A DNA stretch of 64,000 nt, taken from Bispira polyomma. Taxonomy: Eukaryota. Under the pieces are notes generated by a model that worked only from the letters and a program-made list of their open reading frames with translations, made no database searches and had not been told where the DNA came from. The stretch covers positions 40,858,001-40,922,000 of the forward strand of contig OZ287753.1 of the NCBI GenBank assembly GCA_965649765.1, written 5' to 3'. The translations under genes were made by a program, and so were the position numbers. This document shows positions 8,781 to 62,490 of this stretch, piece by piece. The stretch's first letter is position 1; each line of letters starts with the position of its first letter.

Positions 8781-9084
8781 CAGCCAACCAGCACCAGTAA
8801 CTGTCACTCCCTCTATGCGAAGAGAGAGAGAGAGAGAGAGCGAGGCTTGAGTATGACACCGTTTCTCAAACTCCCCAAGGTTATTTAGTCCGTCACTGGA
8901 GATAGCACCCCAATAACAAGTGGATCACCATTTCAAGTGGTCATCTGAACCACTATGTACATGCAACATTTAAATGGCCATCCAGGCCACTTTGTACCTG
9001 CTTATACCTAGGGGTCCTAACCCGAGCTCAAACTCAGGTCCTCATGATTTTTAAGCGAGCATGTTACCGACTAGGCCCTAATGG
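8781..9084 (-). mobile_element. SINE family C copy with internal (GA)n
   Basis: cagccaaccagcaccagtaactgtc..aggcttgag.atgacacc..ccatttcaagtggtcatc; degenerate tRNA head at 9030-9084 (rc). Confidence 0.7.
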
Positions 9085-9227
9085 CATATAGTATTATGCT
9101 TATTATACCACAAATACATTAATACTGCTAAAAATATTCCTTGTTTATCTATTGAGGCCACGCACACTTAGAACTATTATTGTCACTGGTTCAAAGAATA
9201 TAAGCAATCAAAGTTTATAAAGGGGCA

Positions 9228-10836
9228 TATAATGACAAAATGATAATGCCAAAAAAGATAATGCCAGGATTATAATGCCAAAGATAATGCCAGGATTATA
9301 GTGCCCAATTTTTTTTAAAAGCCAGATATAATGCTAGAATTATAATGCCAGATTTTTCAAATTCACGTAAAGAAGTATGAGACTGGGTGAGTGAATCAAT
9401 AGTGTGAAGTGGATGGGGGCACACATGTTACAGCCCCTCCTCACTCCCCCCTTATTCCAGTAGAAGGTTTGAGGTCTTGTGAATTTGGGGCATTTGCATA
9501 TCAGCCCCTCATTACTAAATTGTTAATATTTTTCTGGAATAATTGTTTTGATTTTTAAAGAGCTTAATGTGTGCATGCACATTTGTCCCTTTTTACTCCC
9601 TTCCCACACACTGCTTCTCATTCCTGTAAAAGGGTTTTTGATGTGTGTTGGATATCTGGGTGTGGATATTCTATATCGTGGGTGTTTATTACCTTTATTA
9701 AATTTCTGAATAAATGGGGCTGTTGAAAAAACCTTCTTGATCCATATTATCAGGCGTTTAATTTTATATCAAATAAGTCCAAATTTATTACTCTGTACAA
9801 TGAATTTTTTTTATTTTCCAGAAAATATGTAAAGCTTGTTCAATGTTTGAACAAGTCAGTTGCATGTTTGTTTGTCCGTCCCAATTCAGTCTTGACCAGA
9901 CAGCTTGCTTTCTCCACTTAATTCCCTTTGTGCTATTATGTGATTTCTGTAAACTAGCATACAAAATCTTTCTAACTTTCTTAATAATGGTGTGTTTTTC
10001 ACAAGTCAAAAACCTTCTTGATTAGAATTACCAGGCGTTTATTTTGATATCAAATTTGTACACCTTTACTACTAAATTATATGTAATGACTTTTTTGTCA
10101 TGCAAAGCTAATTCACTGTTTGAAGAAGTCTTTCAAACGGTGTGGGTCCAAATGCATTCTAGACTACACAGCTTGATTAAGCCCCTCTTCTTTCAGAGCT
10201 TTTAAAAAAAACTTAGAAACTTCAAGTTTTCTTAAAAATTAAGTGTTTTTCAAAATTTAAATTCCAGCCTCACCAGCAGCTTTATCGGCATGTTAAGGCG
10301 CTAAAGATGATACTAAATATGGCTATATGTAATATAAAAATTCTATTCTTTTAAAATTCCACATTTGGTCAGTTTATTACTCCAAAGCTAGCTCTCAACT
10401 TGTTCACTTTTAATCAATCATTGTTACATAAAGGGTCAGTAAATTGTATTTTGTGTATTCATTGGGCTTAATCTCTTTTAAAATAACTTACAAATTACAA
10501 ATGATTGTAACTTTCTTAATAATGAACTACCCTACAAACTGGCAATGCTTGTAACTTTCTTAATAATGAAGAATTTTTTAAATTTTAAAACCAGCTTCAT
10601 CAGCACTTTGAGTCGTTTAAGCTGATACTAAATATGGCTTTCTTTAATTTAGAAACTCTATTCTTTTTAAAAATTCACATTTATTTACTTGATTAAGATT
10701 TAGCCCACCACATATTCACTTCTAATCACACATCGTTAAAGGGCCATGCTGAATGATATTTGTGTTATCATTTGAATCTAAAATCTCGAAATGCCTGTGA
10801 CTTTATTGATAATTAGTGTATCTAACTCATTTAAAA

Positions 10837-10914
<78 letters not shown>

Positions 10915-11064
10915 AATAAACATATCTTTATTTATATTAATAAAACAAATCTAAATGTTTAAAAACAATTTTATTAACCGTATGCATATCAGACACTGAT
11001 GAACTTGGAGAAAACCGTTGTCATTTTTATCAGTTTCTTATAAAATTTCTTTACTCTCTTCATT
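9228..11064 (+). repeat. Left inverted arm of foldback element
   Basis: Matches rc of 12108-13960 apart from about four substitutions spotted by eye, a different (TA)n length and a ~49-bp indel beside the microsatellite. Confidence 0.95.
10840..10910. repeat. (TA)n microsatellite; shorter mirror copy at 12262-12297
   Basis: Perfect TA dinucleotide run. Confidence 0.98.
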
Positions 11065-12107
11065 GGCATCACCGTCTTTACCATCCGGTTCCCCACTGTC
11101 TACTGTTTTTACCATCCGATTCCCTGCTTTCTGAACTGTATTCACCATCGGGTCCCCGCTGTCTGAACTGTCTTCGCCACTGTTTTCCCTGCTGTCTGTA
11201 CTGTCTTCACCATTCAGTTCCCCGCTGCCTACTGTCTTCACCATCCGGTTCCCTGCTGTCTGTACTGTCTTCACCATCGGTTTCCCTGTTGTCTGTACTG
11301 TCTTCACCATCGGTTTCCCTGTTGTCTGTACTGTCTTCACCATCAGGTTTCCTGTTGTCTGTACTGTTTTCACCATCGGATTCCCTGTTGTCTGTACTGT
11401 CGTCACCATTAAATTCCTCGTTGTCTGTACTTGCATCACTATCAATAAGATCATCAAACAGCTGATAATTGTGATGTACAGCTAACTTTAGAGCTTTTCT
11501 GAAGTTATAATCCTTTTCCTCCATGAGATTTTCAACCTCTCCCATGATTTCATTGTGTATGGTACTGTTTTTCAACTTACGGGTTTGTAAGCACAATATC
11601 TTTGTACTTTTTCACAATAAACTTTTTATATTTGTAAAGTAAATCGTCAGTAGCTTTCTGCCGTGATTCAAGGTTGGAGTTCCCATCTTCTTCATATTCT
11701 GTAACTAATTGACCATATTCGTCATCGTATGCATTGTAAGCCTCACTGACAATATCATCCCATCCTGATTCATCATCACTTTCCTCATCAAACCTTGACT
11801 TTTTAGAGACTTGCCCTTCGTCTTCTGGACATCCTCTTTTGAAATGTTTCTGTAAATCCATTTGTGAGGCAAATAGCAATCCACAGTCGATACAAGAACA
11901 CGGCATGGATTGCTGCTTCCCCATGCTGGTACTAGACATACAGGAGCATTTTAACGGTTGAGGTTTATCCATGATGTTGTCGCATTGACTGCAAACCGCT
12001 GAATGACTCGATTGTTTCTTTTTATTTATTTTTAAGACATCCGTCTTCAATCGATTGTCATCCGGGGTTTTTTGTTTAAGGTCCACCAATAAATAACCAT
12101 AAGTTAG
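11038..12107 (-). pseudogene. 5'-truncated, frameshifted gene: Maverick/Polinton-type packaging ATPase C-terminus + C2HC zinc finger + helical domain + acidic repeat tail
   Basis: TYGYLLVDLKQKTPDDNRLKTDVL (12104 downward) resembles the PYGYLLIDLxxxTPxxxRLRTxIF C-terminal motif of Polinton ATPases; CIDC-x12-H-x4-C finger; ORF pieces 11577-12089, 11207-11596 and 11038-11457 join by frameshifts; stop TAA 11038-11040. Confidence 0.7.
11075..11432 (-). repeat. 33-bp coding tandem repeat (DSTDNRETDGE units)
   Basis: Unit ctgtcttcaccatcggtttccctgttgtctgta at 11265, 11298 and 11331, with degenerate copies either side. Confidence 0.9.
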
Positions 12108-12257
12108 AATAAAGAGAATAAAGAAATTTTATAAGAAACTGATAAAAATGACAACGGTTTTCTCCAAGTTCATCAGTGTCTGATATGCATACGGTTAATA
12201 AAATTGTTTTTAAAAATTTAGATTTGTTTTATTAATATAAATAAAGATATGTTTATT

Positions 12258-12299
<42 letters not shown>

Positions 12300-13960
12300 T
12301 AATGTTCTGTGCAGATGAAGCAGGTTTTTAATAGTGTGTTAAGTACATTAGTTTTGAATGAGTTAGATACACTAATTATCAATAAAGTCACAGGCATTTC
12401 GAGATTTTAGATTCAAATGATAACACAAATATCATTCAGCATGGCCCTTTAACGATGTGTGATTAGAAGTGAATATGTGGTGGGCTAAATCTTAATCAAG
12501 TAAATAAATGTGAATTTTTAAAAAGAATAGAGTTTCTAAATTAAAGAAAGCCATATTTAGTATCAGCTTAAACGACTCAAAGTGCTGATGAAGCTGGTTT
12601 TAAAATTTAAAAAATTCTTCATTATTAAGAAAGTTACAAGCATTGCCAGTTTGTAGGGTAGTTCATTATTAAGAAAGTTACAATCATTTGTAATTTGTAA
12701 GTTATTTTAAAAGAGATTAAGCCCAATGAATACACAAAATACAATTTACTGACCCTTTATGTAACAATGATTGATTAAAAGTGAACAAGTTGAGAGCTAG
12801 CTTTGGAGTAATAAACTGACCAAATGTGGAATTTTAAAAGAATAGAATTTTTATATTACATATAGCCATATTTAGTATCATCTTTAGCGCCTTAACATGC
12901 CGATAAAGCTGCTGGTGAGGCTGGAATTTAAATTTTGAAAAACACTTAATTTTTAAGAAAACTTGAAGTTTCTAAGTTTTTTTTAAAAGCTCTGAAAGAA
13001 GAGGGGCTTAATCAAGCTGTGTAGTCTAGAATGCATTTGGACCCACACCGTTTGAAAGACTTCTTCAAACAGTGAATTAGCTTTGCATGACAAAAAAGTC
13101 ATTACATATAATTTAGTAGTAAAGGTGTACAAATTTGATATCAAAATAAACGCCTGGTAATTCTAATCAAGAAGGTTTTTGACTTGTGAAAAACACACCA
13201 TTATTAAGAAAGTTAGAAAGATTTTGTATGCTAGTTTACAGAAATCACATAATAGCACAAAGGGAATTAAGTGGAGAAAGCAAGCTGTCTGGTCAAGACT
13301 GAATTGGGACGGACAAACAAACATGCAACTGACTTGTTCAAACATTGAACAAGCTTTACATATTTTCTGGAAAATAAAAAAAATTCATTGTACAGAGTAA
13401 TAAATTTGGACTTATTTGATATAAAATTAAACGCCTGATAATATGGATCAAGAAGGTTTTTTCAACAGCCCCATTTATTCAGAAATTTAATAAAGGTAAT
13501 AAACACCCACGATATAGAATATCCACACCCAGATATCCAACACACATCAAAAACCCTTTTACAGGAATGAGAAGCAGTGTGTGCGAAGGGAGTAAAAAGG
13601 GACAAATGTGCATGCACACATTAAGCTCTTTAAAAATCAAAACAATTATTCCAGAAAAATATTAACAATTTAGTAATGAGGGGCTGATATGCAAATGCCC
13701 CAAATTCACAAGACCTCAAACCTTCTACTGGAATAAGGGGGGAGTGAGGAGGGGCTGTAACATGTGTGCCCCCATCCACTTCACACTATTGATTCACTCA
13801 CCCAGTCTCATACTTCTTTACGTGAATTTGAAAAATCTGGCATTATAATTCTAGCATTATATCTGGCTTTTAAAAAAAATTGGGCACTATAATCCTGGCA
13901 TTATCTTTGGCATTATAATCCTGGCATTATCTTTTTTGGCATTATCATTTTGTCATTATA
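12108..13960 (-). repeat. Right inverted arm of foldback element
   Basis: Reverse complement of 9228-11064; retains extra segment 12298-12346 and is followed by extra terminal bases 13961-13978. Confidence 0.95.
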
Positions 13961-14347
13961 ATCGTGTATACTAAACGGGCCCCTATAGTAGTGGCATACC
14001 ATAAATTTAGTCATTTGTCACAAAGAGGCCAATGGTATTTGTGTATCATTGCACATAACAACAAAAAACCACAGACTGCTTGACTTGACACTAAAACAAC
14101 TGTCAGTATAAGATGACCGGCTCATATGATGGCTGAATAACAGTGACAAATTCAGTGGAAAACTTGGGATTTCTGTCTGTCTATCTGTCTGTCTATTTGT
14201 CTGTCTATTTGTCTGTGAGATATATTGTATTTTTATTTATATATTCATTTATAAGAGTAACTTGGCATATATATCGACAGAGACTCTAAAGTTACTCTAT
14301 ATTGTGAACTTCATAAATTCAGTTCTAATAAGGTGCGATAGTGCCAA

Positions 14348-14558
14348 ACAAGAGTTGTGGTTAAAAAATGCACTAACGTTTGATATGGGTAATATATACT
14401 CAGGCAAATCTGTCACCCCCTTCAGCTGCGTCTGATAATAATAATTTGACACCCCTCGTGTTGATTGCTTTCAACCAATCAATGAATACCCTACATATTT
14501 CGAAGATGGCGGCGCCCTGCTAAGAATGAAAACTACATCAGGTTGTGCCTGATCAAAA
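14348..14558 (+). mobile_element. HINE-like family D copy
   Basis: Starts aacaagagttgt; core caaccaatc..aagatggcggcgccc; ends in hairpin atcagg-ttgtg-cctgat plus aaaa. Confidence 0.55.
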
Positions 14559-14998
14559 GTGAATGAAACAAAACAACAACATATAAACAAACAAAAGGAA
14601 ATCCTTCTACATTGTTGCACTCCAGCCTCTAACGCATGCTACCATGGCGAATGACTTATCGCATCTTTAAATTTGGTGTCACGTGGCCCAGTGGTTTAAG
14701 AGTTTTGTCTTGTGATTACAATGTCACAGGTTTAACTCCTGATTGGGGAGGTTGATCTGGTGATATGAAGGTCCTAATTTAACTCCCGCTGATCCTTTAG
14801 GTTTCTTGTGGGACAACATCTTTGGTCAACATGTGAACATTCTTTTGTCTACTGGTAACAACTTAACGTATGTTGTAAGACTATCCATGAATATGTGCTG
14901 TTTAAGGGTGATATATATATATATATATAAATAGGATACAAGAGTAGAAAAGAAAATAGGGTACTGCTATATACGTGTAGAATCTTAATAACAATAAA

Positions 14999-16802: not shown

Positions 16803-17380
16803 TTAGGAAGTAGTGGATTTAGAAAGTAGGGCCTTGAAGGCCAGGGCCACTTGCTCAGATACATTGTGGTCCTGGACGATGTACTTCCACATACAATCCG
16901 AGGTCCAGGTGCCATGACTTTGAATATCTTGAATTGGTACATTACTATTAAATGCTAGGGTGGCACCTGAACGCGGGAAGGTGTGGAAGGAAATCCCCGA
17001 ATGCTGCAGACCCAGCCTGATAAGTATTAAGGAAAGGTTTTTCCTAACCTGAGAGTCAAACATAGGAAACCATGTCTGATTTTTCTTGAATTGGAATAGA
17101 GGAGAGTTTTTGTGACCTGGAGTAATTGCTAATAGAACTCTAGTAGCTGCCACTGGGCACAAGGGTGAACCATTTAGGGAAGGAATTTTTAACACCTTAA
17201 CTACGTTTTTAGACTGAAGGGTTTTGGACCATTTTATTATGATATGCAACCCAGGGGGAGCAAATAGGACATCCCCCCGGGCCAGTTGCACCAGAAGAGA
17301 AAACTGGTCAGCAGCATGAGGGACCAGGTTGGAGATTCTTAGAAAAGAGAAAAAAGGCTATTAGGTAAACTGCTTCCTTA
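16803..17380 (-). pseudogene. DIRS-order (DIRS/PAT/Ngaro) retrotransposon tyrosine recombinase, inactivated fragment
   Basis: AVYLIAF(fs)FSFLRISNLVP, KWSKTLQ, LCPV, SFHTFPRSGAT, HGTWTSDCMWKYI; +1 frameshift in the T-run near 17350-17355; HxxR arginine read as proline. Confidence 0.85.
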
Positions 17381-23546: not shown

Positions 23547-24150
23547 GAAGGATGACCAGCCAACCAGCACCAATAACTGTCATTCCCGTAACTAAAGACA
23601 GAGGCTTGAGCATAACCAGCCTACCTGCACCAGTAGCTGTCATTTCCATAACTAAAGACAGATAATTAAGGACGACCAACAAACCAGCACCAGTAACTGT
23701 CATTCCACTAACTAAAGACAAAGGCTTGAGCATAACCAGCCAACCTGCACCAGTAGCTCTCATTTCCATAACTAAAGACATACGACTGAGGATGACCAGC
23801 CAACCAGCACCAATAACTGTCATTCCACTAACTAAAGAAGGGGGCTTGAGGATAATCAGCCAACCTGCACCAGTAACTGTCATTTCCATAACTAAAGACA
23901 GATGATTGAGGATGACCAGCCAACCTGCACCAGTAACTGTCATTGCCATAACTAAAGACAGATGATTGAGGATGACCAGCCAACCTGCACCAGTAACTGT
24001 CATTTCCATAACTAAAGACAGATGATTGAGGATGACCAGTAAACCTGCACCAGTAACTGTCATTTCACTAACTAAAGACAGATGATTGAGGATGACCAGC
24101 CAACCAGTAACTGTCATTCCACTAACTAAAGACAAAGGCTTGAGGATGAC
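23547..24150. repeat. 60-bp minisatellite (~10 copies) derived from the 3' part of SINE family C
   Basis: Unit cagccaacc(a/t)gcaccagtaactgtcatttccataactaaagacagatgattgaggatgac; single-copy version at 8781-8858 and 31482-31543. Confidence 0.92.
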
Positions 24151-50881: not shown

Positions 50882-51513
50882 GGACACATACTGTACTGTA
50901 TTATTAGTATCAGACTCAATCCCTACACCCATCTACTGGACACATACTGTATCACTAGTATCAGACTTAACCCCTATACCCATCTACTAGACACATACTG
51001 TACTGTATTATTAGTATCAGACTCAACCCCTACACCCATCTACTAGACACATACTGTATTATTAGTATCAGACTTAACCCCTATACCCATCTACTAGACA
51101 CATACTGTACTGAATTATTAGTATCAGACTTAACCCCTACACCCATCTGCTGGACACATACTGTATTATAAGTATCTGACTTAACCCCTACACCCATCTA
51201 CTGGACACATACTGTATCACTAGTATCAGACTTAACCCCTACACCCATCTGCTGGACACATACTGTATTATAAGTATCTGACTTAACCCCTACACCCATC
51301 TACTGGACACATACTGTATCACTAGTACCAGACTTAACCCCTACACCCATCTGCTGGACACATACTGTATTATTAGTATCAGACTCAACAACTACACCCA
51401 TCTACTGGACACATACTGTATTATTAGTATCAGACTCAACAACTACACCCATCTACTGGACACATACTGTACTGTATTACTAGTATCAGACTCAACCCAT
51501 ACACCCATCTACT
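50882..51513. repeat. 51/56-bp minisatellite, 12 units
   Basis: Unit starts 50882, 50938, 50989, 51045, 51096, 51152, 51203, 51254, 51305, 51356, 51407, 51458; consensus ggacacatactgt(actgt)attattagtatcagacttaacccctacacccatctact. Confidence 0.95.
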
Positions 51514-61550: not shown

Positions 61551-61820
61551 GCTTTTAAAGTGGTACAACATTATCCAGTTCGTAAATATCTCAGGGACTA
61601 TACCAGAATGTTCAAAACCAGAAGGGCACTCAGTAGAGCGCATACCTCCCACAAGGTGGAGTGCATACCTCCTACAAGATAGAGCGCTTTTAAAGTGGTA
61701 CAACATTATCCAGTTCGTAAATATCTCGGGGACTATACCAGAATGTTCTAAATCAGAAGGGCACTCAGTAGAGCGCATACCTCCCACAAGGTGGAGTGCA
61801 TACCTCCTACAAGATAGAGC
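61551..61820. repeat. 135-bp tandem duplication spanning flank and HINE 5' end
   Basis: 61551-61685 repeated at 61686-61820 with few mismatches. Confidence 0.92.
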
Positions 61821-62490
61821 GCATACCTCCCACAAGATAGAGCACATACCTCCAACAAGATAGAGTGCATACCTCCAACAAGATAGAGGGCATACCTCTG
61901 ACAAGGTAGAGTGCATACCTCCGACAAGATAGAGTGCATACCTCCAACAAGGTAGAGCGCATACCTCCAACAAGATAGAGCGCATACCTCCGACAAGATA
62001 GAGCGCATACCTCCGACAAGATAGAGCGCATACCTCTGACAAGGTAGAGCGCATACCTTCAACAAGGTAGAGCGCATACCTCCAATAAGGTAGAGGACAT
62101 ACCTCCAACAAGGTAGAGCACATACCTCCAACAAGGTGCCACATTGCCAAAACATGGAAAAAGTTACCATTTTACCCTTCTACACAGATCCACTCTAAAC
62201 AATAGTTGTCTTTTAAACAAGACACGTGACCACGGTGTGAGAAATGTTGATCTGACACCCCTCAGCTTGGTCAGGTTGATTCCTTCCAACCAATCCATAA
62301 AGGCCTTACATATTTTTTTTAACATGGCAGCACTTTCAAACATGGTCGTGCCCTTTTTTAAGTGAAATTATTTACCTCTTTCTTGGCCCATCGATCCATC
62401 TCCCCAGCTAATCTCATGTAAATCGGATGACTAGTTTTTTGTGTAATCCTGACAACAACCAAACAGATATGAGCCAGAACATAACCTCCT
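61617..62490 (+). mobile_element. HINE-like family E element with internal tandem array and nested family D fragment
   Basis: 5' accagaagggcactcagtagagcgcatacctcc; 3' tcatgtaaatcgg..agttttttgtgtaatcctg..aaacaga..aacataacctcct; family D piece at 62199-62360. Confidence 0.6.
61769..62136. repeat. 23-bp minisatellite, 16 copies
   Basis: Unit tagagcgcatacctccaacaag(a/g) every 23 bp from 61769 to 62114. Confidence 0.95.

What the first reader, a model, noticed from the sequence alone, without database searches (positions are those of the whole stretch)
11038..12107. Spacer encodes ATPase C-terminus fused to a C2HC finger, a helical domain and an acidic 11-aa repeat tail
Reading upstream of the track ORF gives TYGYLLVDLKQKTPDDNRLKTDVL. 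From memory this resembles the conserved end of Polinton/Maverick A32-like packaging ATPases (PYGYLLIDL..TP...R.RT); the T codon ACT is one base from CCT (Pro). The frame runs on into C-x2-C-x12-H-x4-C, an acidic linker, and a helical segment (LKNSTIHNEIM..RKALKLAV) reached by one frameshift near 11597, then DSTDNRETDGE repeats. Canonical Polinton ATPases stop soon after that motif, so the ~300-aa extension is an unusual architecture. The three overlapping track ORFs are one broken gene.
Basis: partly seen in the sequence, partly recalled or inferred. Interest (0 to 1): 0.7.

Follow-up and report, generated by a model that had tools for sequence, protein, structure and literature searches.

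The report
Mirror-image Polinton with zinc-finger ATPase
This is the broken tail of a virus-like Polinton gene, in which the DNA-packaging ATPase carries a widespread zinc-finger and helical extension of no named family, and it sits in the middle of a 4.8-kb mirror-image jumping element whose two arms copy the same end of a Polinton and which was likely spread by the enzymes of full-length Polintons.

Summary
The spacer encodes the last ~23 residues of a Polinton A32-type ATPase, a C2HC finger, a helical domain and a 33-bp acidic repeat, with a frame break near 11584-11586. The extension is no one-off: its profile finds 763 protein clusters, and 74 of the best 150 have the ATPase in the same chain. 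In metagenome contigs integrase follows the gene (5 of 10). It matches no Pfam family above cut-off and no clear fold.

The fragment lies in a 4,763-bp palindrome (9230-13992) with a 6-bp target duplication. Both ~1.85-kb arms copy one end of a full-length Polinton family in this genome (96% over 430 bp; that family's own inverted repeat is ~150 bp). Thirteen such loci (12 insertions) were examined. The longest (8.3 kb) carries the ATPase gene in both arms around a minisatellite fold-back point. Here the centre, with the Walker motifs, was deleted, likely after insertion. None of 42 finger-bearing stretches has a polymerase, so spread was likely in trans.

The scan noted palindromic Polinton satellites before in other genomes (three unchecked notes). 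Verdict: new variant of a known kind.

The parts
9224..9229 (.). Left copy of the 6-bp target-site duplication GGCATA
   Evidence: sequence; table
9230..11064 (+). Left arm of the palindrome: one Polinton end read inward; lacks the outermost 34 bp and a 46-nt piece beside the TA tract that the right arm has
9229..9305 (+). Subterminal ATAATGCC-type short repeats (mirror copy at 13883-13963)
10840..10910 (.). TA microsatellite inside the left arm (shorter mirror copy at 12262-12297)
11065..12103 (-). Unpaired spacer: the 3' part of the ATPase-finger gene, which in longer sister copies is part of both arms
12033..12101 (-). C-terminal motif of the A32-type ATPase (YGYLLVDLKQ..TPDD.RLKT); the Walker A/B part is lost at the junction
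11829..11894 (-). C-x2-C-x12-H-x4-C zinc finger
11438..11768 (-). Conserved all-helical domain, no Pfam family and no clear fold match; interrupted by a frame break near 11584-11586
11074..11409 (-). 33-bp tandem array coding the acidic 11-residue tail; in-frame stop at 11207-11209 shared with sister copies
12104..12107 (.). Four filler bases at the centre-deletion junction, which joins distance-from-end 3002 to 1965 (coordinates of copy L013)
12108..13992 (-). Right arm, complete to the terminal motif ...ATAGTAGT; outer 430 bp 96% identical to the right end of a full-length Polinton on C1
13993..13998 (.). Right copy of the 6-bp target-site duplication GGCATA
   Evidence: sequence; junction bridged by contigs in 3 of 3 runs

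Best explanation
The finding is the deleted, frame-broken 3' half of a Polinton packaging-ATPase gene with a conserved zinc-finger, helical and acidic extension, lying in the centre of a non-autonomous palindromic Polinton derivative that likely arose by fold-back during replication, was likely copied and inserted in trans by full-length Polintons with the same end, and likely lost its centre after insertion. Steps: (1) SHOWN: both arms are one Polinton end, and each dated insertion has its own 6-bp target duplication. (2) INFERRED: an ancestral ~8.3-8.6-kb palindrome formed when synthesis from that end turned back in the GCACCAAT minisatellite upstream of the ATPase start; two copies keep a dyad AATAGCTATT there. 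(3) INFERRED from established protein-primed strand-displacement replication (adenovirus-type panhandle; recalled): with the same origin at both ends the molecule needs only a helper's pPolB, the displaced strand re-anneals arm to arm and evens out the arms, and a helper's integrase inserts it. (4) SHOWN for one insertion, inferred for the rest: the centre is deleted asymmetrically in the chromosome, a different break in each copy. (5) INFERRED: in its parent lineage the protein is the ordinary genome-packaging motor, and the finger plus helical bundle likely act as a built-in DNA-recognition or adaptor module. The window's copy cannot encode a motor.
For: Arms and duplication. 6-bp duplications: perfect in 8 of 9 loci checked (L018 read), 5 of 6 bases in L040. 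Same terminus on three 16.6-19.6-kb Polintons with pPolB, capsid genes and 6-bp duplications (integrase seen in 2 of the 3), whose own inverted repeats are only 87-155 bp, while the palindrome arms match their right end for 430-630 bp. All 13 palindromic loci map within ~4.3 kb of that one end, and none runs past the minisatellite. The fold-back dyad is in L013 and L018. L017 and L019 share flanks and the junction 3499|3959 but have different further deletions. The two arms of a copy pair in the tree in 8 of 8 usable loci, and private bases shared by both arms number 3-30 per copy in the 7 of these that were counted. pPolB is near 0 of 42 finger-bearing stretches, integrase near 1. Protein: Pox_A32 above cut-off in P0006 and in sister ORFs; 74 of 150 best hits fused; integrase directly downstream in 5 of 10 metagenome loci; dN/dS 0.19-0.33 between the two gene families in this genome, for the ATPase and for the extension.
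Against: No linear parent that continues past the fold-back point at high identity was found, so the fold-back event itself is not seen; the genome searches score only the best candidates. The three full-length Polintons with this end all show pPolB split over several ORFs, so the actual helper is not identified. Every independent insertion has its own junction, which separate copy-back events would also give. Arm likeness could come from gene conversion after insertion. L014's arms (1.65%) are no closer to each other than to the window's left arm (1.43-1.56%). 73 of 150 hits start within 110 residues of the finger and 34 look like stand-alone proteins, so fusion is not universal or many are gene-call fragments. 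The fused ATPases group with weak support (89/61). No function of the extension was tested.
Confidence: 0.72

Rival explanations
1. Each copy is a separate copy-back defective genome: the junction between the arms was made by a template switch during replication, not by deletion in the chromosome.
For: Junctions differ in all 12 independent insertions examined; filler bases at the window's junction; arms pair within copies.
Against: No copy runs beyond the same minisatellite, as would be expected from a longer linear template. L017 and L019 show two different deletions of one insertion, and L016, L018 and L019 keep pieces of both sides of an older centre.
Confidence: 0.15
2. The palindromes formed in the chromosome (head-to-head insertions or inversion of a resident Polinton end) and the arms were kept alike by gene conversion; the palindrome never moved as a unit.
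For: Long inverted repeats undergo conversion (established knowledge); other Polinton families in this genome also lie as mirror images.
Against: One 6-bp duplication brackets the whole palindrome at 8 loci (7 separate insertions) with unrelated flanks; the same arm content recurs on many chromosomes.
Confidence: 0.06
3. A foldback or MULE-type cut-and-paste transposon captured a Polinton gene fragment as cargo.
For: Long, internally repetitive arms around a passive middle look like Foldback/Galileo elements (resemblance recalled; one search listing).
Against: The ends are those of full-length Polintons; the duplication is 6 bp; the gene is part of the arms in longer copies.
Confidence: 0.04
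4. The palindrome is an assembly artefact, or the ORF is a host zinc-finger gene.
For: The window's arms differ at only 2 of 1,611 positions outside the TA tract, as chimeric reads would give; a weak C2H2 Pfam hit.
Against: Target duplication; arms differ by two deletions; sister palindromes have 0.5-1.7% diverged arms; short-read contigs match the right junction exactly in 3 of 3 runs and the truncated left end in 2 of 3 (one study, possibly the source sample; the left piece has only 28 bases inside the element); homologues are intronless ATPase fusions beside integrase.
Confidence: 0.03

Closest known systems
Polinton/Maverick elements (Barreat and Katzourakis 2021, PMC8097293: passages, section 7, first part of section 14, supplement searched; Kapitonov and Jurka 2006: recalled, not held)
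   Same: 6-bp target duplication, short repeated end motif, A32-type ATPase; full-length relatives here carry pPolB, integrase and capsid-like genes.
   Different: No pPolB, integrase or capsid gene in the element. Arms of 1.85-4 kb copy one end, against 46-1,447-bp terminal repeats in intact vertebrate elements. The end motif (ACT)2AT//AT(AGT)2 is not among the three that paper lists.
Polinton A32/FtsK-like packaging ATPase (Pfam PF04665 Pox_A32; adenovirus IVa2 PF02456)
   Same: Walker A, Walker B and the C-terminal PYGYL motif in homologues; Foldseek hits to A32, IVa2 and virophage ATPases.
   Different: Adds a disordered linker, a C2HC finger, a ~110-residue helical domain and an acidic tail, and often an N-terminal C2H2 finger (8 of 21 whole ATPases). 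The full-length Polintons with the same end have a short ATPase without it, 33-42% identical.
Snap-back and copy-back defective genomes; palindromic derivatives of linear protein-capped replicons (recalled; two searches returned no paper on this for Polintons)
   Same: Both ends from one terminus, a fold-back centre, dependence on a helper's polymerase.
   Different: Here the molecules are integrated with target duplications and survive as a repeat family in an animal germ line.
Foldback/Galileo-type elements and MITEs (recalled; search listing only)
   Same: Long inverted arms, variable middle, non-autonomous spread.
   Different: Ends and duplication length are of Polinton type; no DDE transposase link found.

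Membership tests
Polinton/Maverick, autonomous | 6-bp target-site duplication | tested here: met
   GGCATA in the window; perfect in 8 of 9 loci checked
Polinton/Maverick, autonomous | Terminal inverted repeats with a short repeated end motif | tested here: met
   ACTACTAT...ATAGTAGT, shared with three full-length elements; the window's left end lacks the outer 34 bp
Polinton/Maverick, autonomous | Encodes protein-primed PolB | tested here: not met
   no match in the window's element or in any of 42 finger-bearing stretches
Polinton/Maverick, autonomous | Encodes retroviral-like integrase and capsid proteins | tested here: not met
   absent from the window's element and its palindromic sisters; integrase fragment in 1 and major capsid in 4 of 42 stretches, all other element types
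Non-autonomous Polinton derivative | Ends shared with a full-length Polinton in the same genome | tested here: met
   96% over 430 bp with the C1 element's right end
Non-autonomous Polinton derivative | Several independent insertions without own replication genes | tested here: met
   13 loci, 12 insertions examined
Non-autonomous Polinton derivative | Mobilisation in trans by a helper | not testable with these tools
   inferred from ends and duplications
A32-like packaging ATPase | P-loop domain with Walker A/B upstream of the PYGYL motif | tested here: met
   met in sister copies and homologues; deleted in the window's copy
A32-like packaging ATPase | ATP-driven DNA packaging activity | not testable with these tools
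   no assay
Described Maverick ORFs PM/PZ/PW | Homology of the finger-helical domain to the ORF between ATPase and integrase | tested here: inconclusive
Known folds (PDB, BFVD) | Structural match of the helical domain | tested here: inconclusive
   no BFVD hit at E<=0.001; best Z 7.1, rmsd 3.0 over 62 residues, none at Z>=8
Foldback/MULE DNA transposon | 7-12-bp duplication and DDE transposase-type ends (recalled) | tested here: not met
   6-bp duplication and Polinton ends

The most novel reading that the evidence does not exclude
The ATPase-finger gene is the working part of a packaging-hijack satellite of Polintons, an animal counterpart of phage satellites that redirect a helper's packaging. 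In this genome it is never beside pPolB (0 of 42). It sits on at least two unrelated Polinton ends (ACTACTAT family and ACTACAAT family; gene 82-88% identical, arms unrelated), is also spliced onto the capsid half of a second Polinton family at three loci, and stayed under purifying selection while these families diverged (dN/dS 0.19-0.33). Its extra fingers would let it pick its own mirror-image genome for the helper's capsid. Against: in metagenome contigs the same gene sits in a normal slot before integrase, so the selection may have acted in an autonomous parent that is missing from this assembly.
Probability: 0.2. Interest if true: 0.8.

Novelty: new variant of a known kind. Interest (0 to 1): 0.5.

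Why it matters
Two things. First, a lineage of Polinton packaging ATPases carries a conserved C-terminal finger-plus-helix module (763 clusters at 50% identity) that has no Pfam family and that my searches did not find in print. How Polintons choose their DNA for packaging is unknown, and this module is a concrete candidate. Second, transposed palindromes whose arms are one Polinton end, and whose arms pair within each copy, are the products expected from protein-primed strand-displacement replication with panhandle formation, a model proposed for Polintons but, as far as I recall, not observed directly. The family gives dated, countable material: arm divergence from 0.12% to 1.65%, and centre deletions caught at different stages. 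The window's own fragment is a dead remnant.

Tried and rejected
TA target duplication with ends at 9228/13960 (first reading): rejected once sister copies showed 34 further terminal bases and 6-bp duplications. Fold-back through the local inverted pair of Pro-rich repeats around the ATPase start: it would restart the second arm at another place than the one seen. 'The gene occurs only in satellites': weakened by integrase-linked copies in metagenome contigs and L054. IMG/VR scan with the finger profile: 38 pattern matches, none confirmed. ESM Atlas: recognition 1807, below the reliable level, generic finger hits only. No fold match for the helical domain; absence shows nothing. No RNA holder listed. 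The central junction was not among the listed contig pieces, and no empty-site joint was listed (lists cut). L017 and L019 were left out of the arm-pair count because internal deletions put non-homologous sequence into the cut arms. The inverted repeat around L056 is two LINE-like fragments, not element ends. Weak Pfam hits on P0001-P0003 (E 0.009-0.5) were disregarded. Literature searches without a matching description: Polinton, palindromic, nonautonomous: 6 papers, listings only; 0; 0; 0; 0. Passages read in 10.1101/2023.08.22.554363, PMC11414722, PMC11131425, PMC6431247 and PMC10294476 held no palindromic Polinton or finger-fused ATPase. Repbase and the 2006-2007 founding papers could not be seen and may describe long-armed non-autonomous Polintons; bioRxiv supplements were not consulted.

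Full report
OBSERVATION. Frame 11577-12128 holds the ATPase end motif, the C-x2-C-x12-H-x4-C finger and the acidic linker. Frame 11207-11611 holds the helical segment and the acidic units, a 33-bp array of 10.3 copies. The break between the two frames lies near 11584-11586. The stop at 11207-11209 is shared by L013, L014 and L020, and most of ORF 11038-11481 is the other frame of the repeat. The Thr codon before YGYLL straddles a junction: the window follows its sister L013 up to 12103, then has four filler bases, then the inner end of the right arm.

THE PROTEIN. A search for longer homologues gave 9 proteins of 349-551 residues, 30-54% identical. All align through the ATPase end and the finger, and most through the helical part; the only named ones are from Mya arenaria. 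Pox_A32 passes its cut-off in P0006 and in two sister ORFs of this genome. A profile of the finger-helical domain finds 763 clusters at E<=0.001 among 1.84 billion representatives. Of the best 150, 74 have ATPase sequence upstream in the same chain, 3 have more than 110 residues upstream without it, and 73 start closer to the finger, so they are stand-alone genes or gene-call fragments; 34 look stand-alone. The whole ATPase is present in 21, with Walker A intact in 18 and an N-terminal C2H2 finger in 8. The last zinc ligand is Cys in 114 of 119 matches to the finger pattern, and 111 of 117 tails are over 30% Asp/Glu. A model of a natural homologue (mean pLDDT 84, pTM 0.55) shows ATPase, disordered linker, finger and helical domain as separate units and matches A32, IVa2 and virophage ATPases. 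The extension alone folds confidently (pLDDT 90) but has no clear structural match and no Pfam family beyond generic fingers. In 10 metagenome loci the ATPase lies upstream in 7, integrase directly downstream in 5 and pPolB nearby in 1. So the long form is the regular packaging ATPase of some Polintons. Whether all fused forms share one origin is open: they form one group of 27 of 33 rows with support 89/61.

THE SETTING. The window is G000:C6:40858001-40922000 in a 1.04-Gb animal genome (likely a mollusc, inferred from the homologues). The gene fragment lies between inverted arms of about 1.85 kb. The element runs 9230-13992 with GGCATA on both sides. Its right end is complete and its left end lacks the outer 34 bp. 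The spacer has at least 42 matches in the genome (40 of 64 candidates scored). Thirteen loci with both arms were examined: window, L013-L020, L040, L041, L044, L045; L017 and L019 are one insertion duplicated. Target duplications were checked in 9: perfect 6-mers in 8 and 5 of 6 bases in L040. Lengths run from 2.7 to 8.3 kb. Mapped on L013, every copy consists of two opposed pieces of the same ~4.3-kb end, and none continues past the minisatellite upstream of the ATPase start. In the longest copies the gene is in both arms, pointing outward. L013 and L018 keep a turn at AATAGCTATT inside the minisatellite.

THE LIKELY HELPERS. The end search also found three 16.6-19.6-kb Polintons (C1, C2, C8) with the same ACTACTAT terminus and 6-bp duplications. 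They carry pPolB and capsid-like genes, integrase was seen in two, and their ATPase is short and lacks the finger. Their inverted repeats are 87-155 bp, whereas the palindrome arms match their right end at 96% over 430 bp and more weakly to about 630 bp. Both arms therefore come from one end. All three show pPolB in pieces. Among 51 stretches of 5-30 kb examined, 43 held the finger domain, one locus being counted twice; of the 42, none had pPolB, 1 an integrase fragment and 4 a major capsid gene.

HOW IT MOST LIKELY WORKS. Arms of one copy pair with each other in 8 of 8 usable loci (support 0.91-1.0), differ by 0.12-1.65%, and share private bases; the window's arms differ at 2 of 1,611 positions, the youngest seen. 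L017 and L019 were left out because deletions spoiled the cut. This fits arms made equal at or just before insertion, as in panhandle formation during protein-primed strand-displacement synthesis (established for adenoviruses and proposed for Polintons; recalled, with the end-motif argument in PMC8097293, section 14), though conversion in place is not excluded. Junctions are unique to each independent insertion. L017 and L019 share flanks and one junction but differ in a later deletion, and L017 keeps 23 bases of the segment that L019 retains. That shows deletion after insertion for this case. In the window the deletion took the promoter side and the Walker motifs from one arm and nearly the whole gene from the other.

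REALITY CHECK. Logan contigs match the right junction exactly in 3 of 3 runs (13952-14700) and the truncated left end in 2 of 3 (8930-9257, only 28 bases inside the element). These are at most two samples of one study and may be the source. No listed contig spans the centre.

THE BOLDER READING. The same gene, 82-88% identical, also sits in a second palindrome family with unrelated arms (L025, L026) and in three linear elements joined to the capsid half of another Polinton family. Pairwise dN/dS between the families is 0.19-0.24 for the ATPase and 0.31-0.33 for the extension, against 0.46 and 0.62 within the window's family (Nei-Gojobori, pairs not independent, post-insertion changes included). 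The gene was therefore constrained while it moved between ends. A packaging-hijack satellite would explain this, but an autonomous parent missing from this assembly explains it as well, and relatives elsewhere sit in a normal position before integrase. I give the satellite reading 0.2.

WHAT IS KNOWN. PMC8097293 (passages, section 7, first part of section 14, supplement searched) gives 6-bp duplications, terminal repeats of 46-1,447 bp and three end motifs, not the one seen here. Ten library searches and passages of five other papers showed no palindromic Polinton derivative and no finger-fused ATPase. The founding papers and Repbase could not be seen, so prior description is not excluded. Three unchecked notes of this scan report palindromic Polinton satellites in other genomes; they agree with my reading, were looked up after it was formed, and are not evidence. 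Two other Polinton families in this genome also lie as mirror images.

VERDICT. Real and correctly recognised as a Polinton ATPase remnant; a new variant of a known kind in both protein architecture and element structure; interest 0.5.

Noticed in passing
G000:C9:50390000-50418500 (L123-L125): Another Polinton family as a giant mirror image of at least 28 kb: ATPase, major and minor capsid and integrase on both arms, inner arms 99.0% over 9.9 kb, centre about 80 bp; outer ends not reached.
   Followed up: partly
G000:C6:9001260-9011080 (L126-L128): Palindrome with 4,750-bp arms at 99.87% holding capsid, integrase and ATPase genes; ends and duplication not defined, so an assembly artefact is not excluded.
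   Followed up: partly
L025:1170-7397 and L026:1795-7771: Second palindrome family with ACTACAAT ends and ACGGTCAC subterminal repeats, carrying the same ATPase-finger gene on an unrelated arm.
   Followed up: partly
L027, L030, L048 with neighbours: Three polymerase-less and integrase-less elements: ATPase-finger gene joined to minor and major capsid-like, TBP-like and BIR genes 75-90% identical to a second full-length Polinton family.
   Followed up: partly
L033, L035, L069, L071, L072: Full-length Polintons here encode a TBP-like protein (Pfam PF00352) and some a BIR domain; I did not search for a protease gene.
   Followed up: no
L017, L019, L042, L043: One insertion (duplication AATGAA) recurs with the same flank on four chromosomes, so it was amplified inside a larger repeat or duplication.
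   Followed up: partly
L055 and L060 with neighbours: Distant ATPase-finger genes (finger domain 27-29% identical) in ~8-kb elements with AGTAGT ends and no other Polinton core gene detected.
   Followed up: partly
window 32671-33354 (-): Sulfotransferase exon (PF00685, E 4e-22), resembling heparan sulfate 3-O-sulfotransferase (recalled).
   Followed up: no
window 16806-17357 (-): ORF that looks like a tyrosine-recombinase fragment of a DIRS/Ngaro element (recalled; no Pfam hit at E 0.01).
   Followed up: no
window 23549-24150, 50894-51513, 61551-62135: Minisatellites with periods 60, 51 and 23/135.
   Followed up: no
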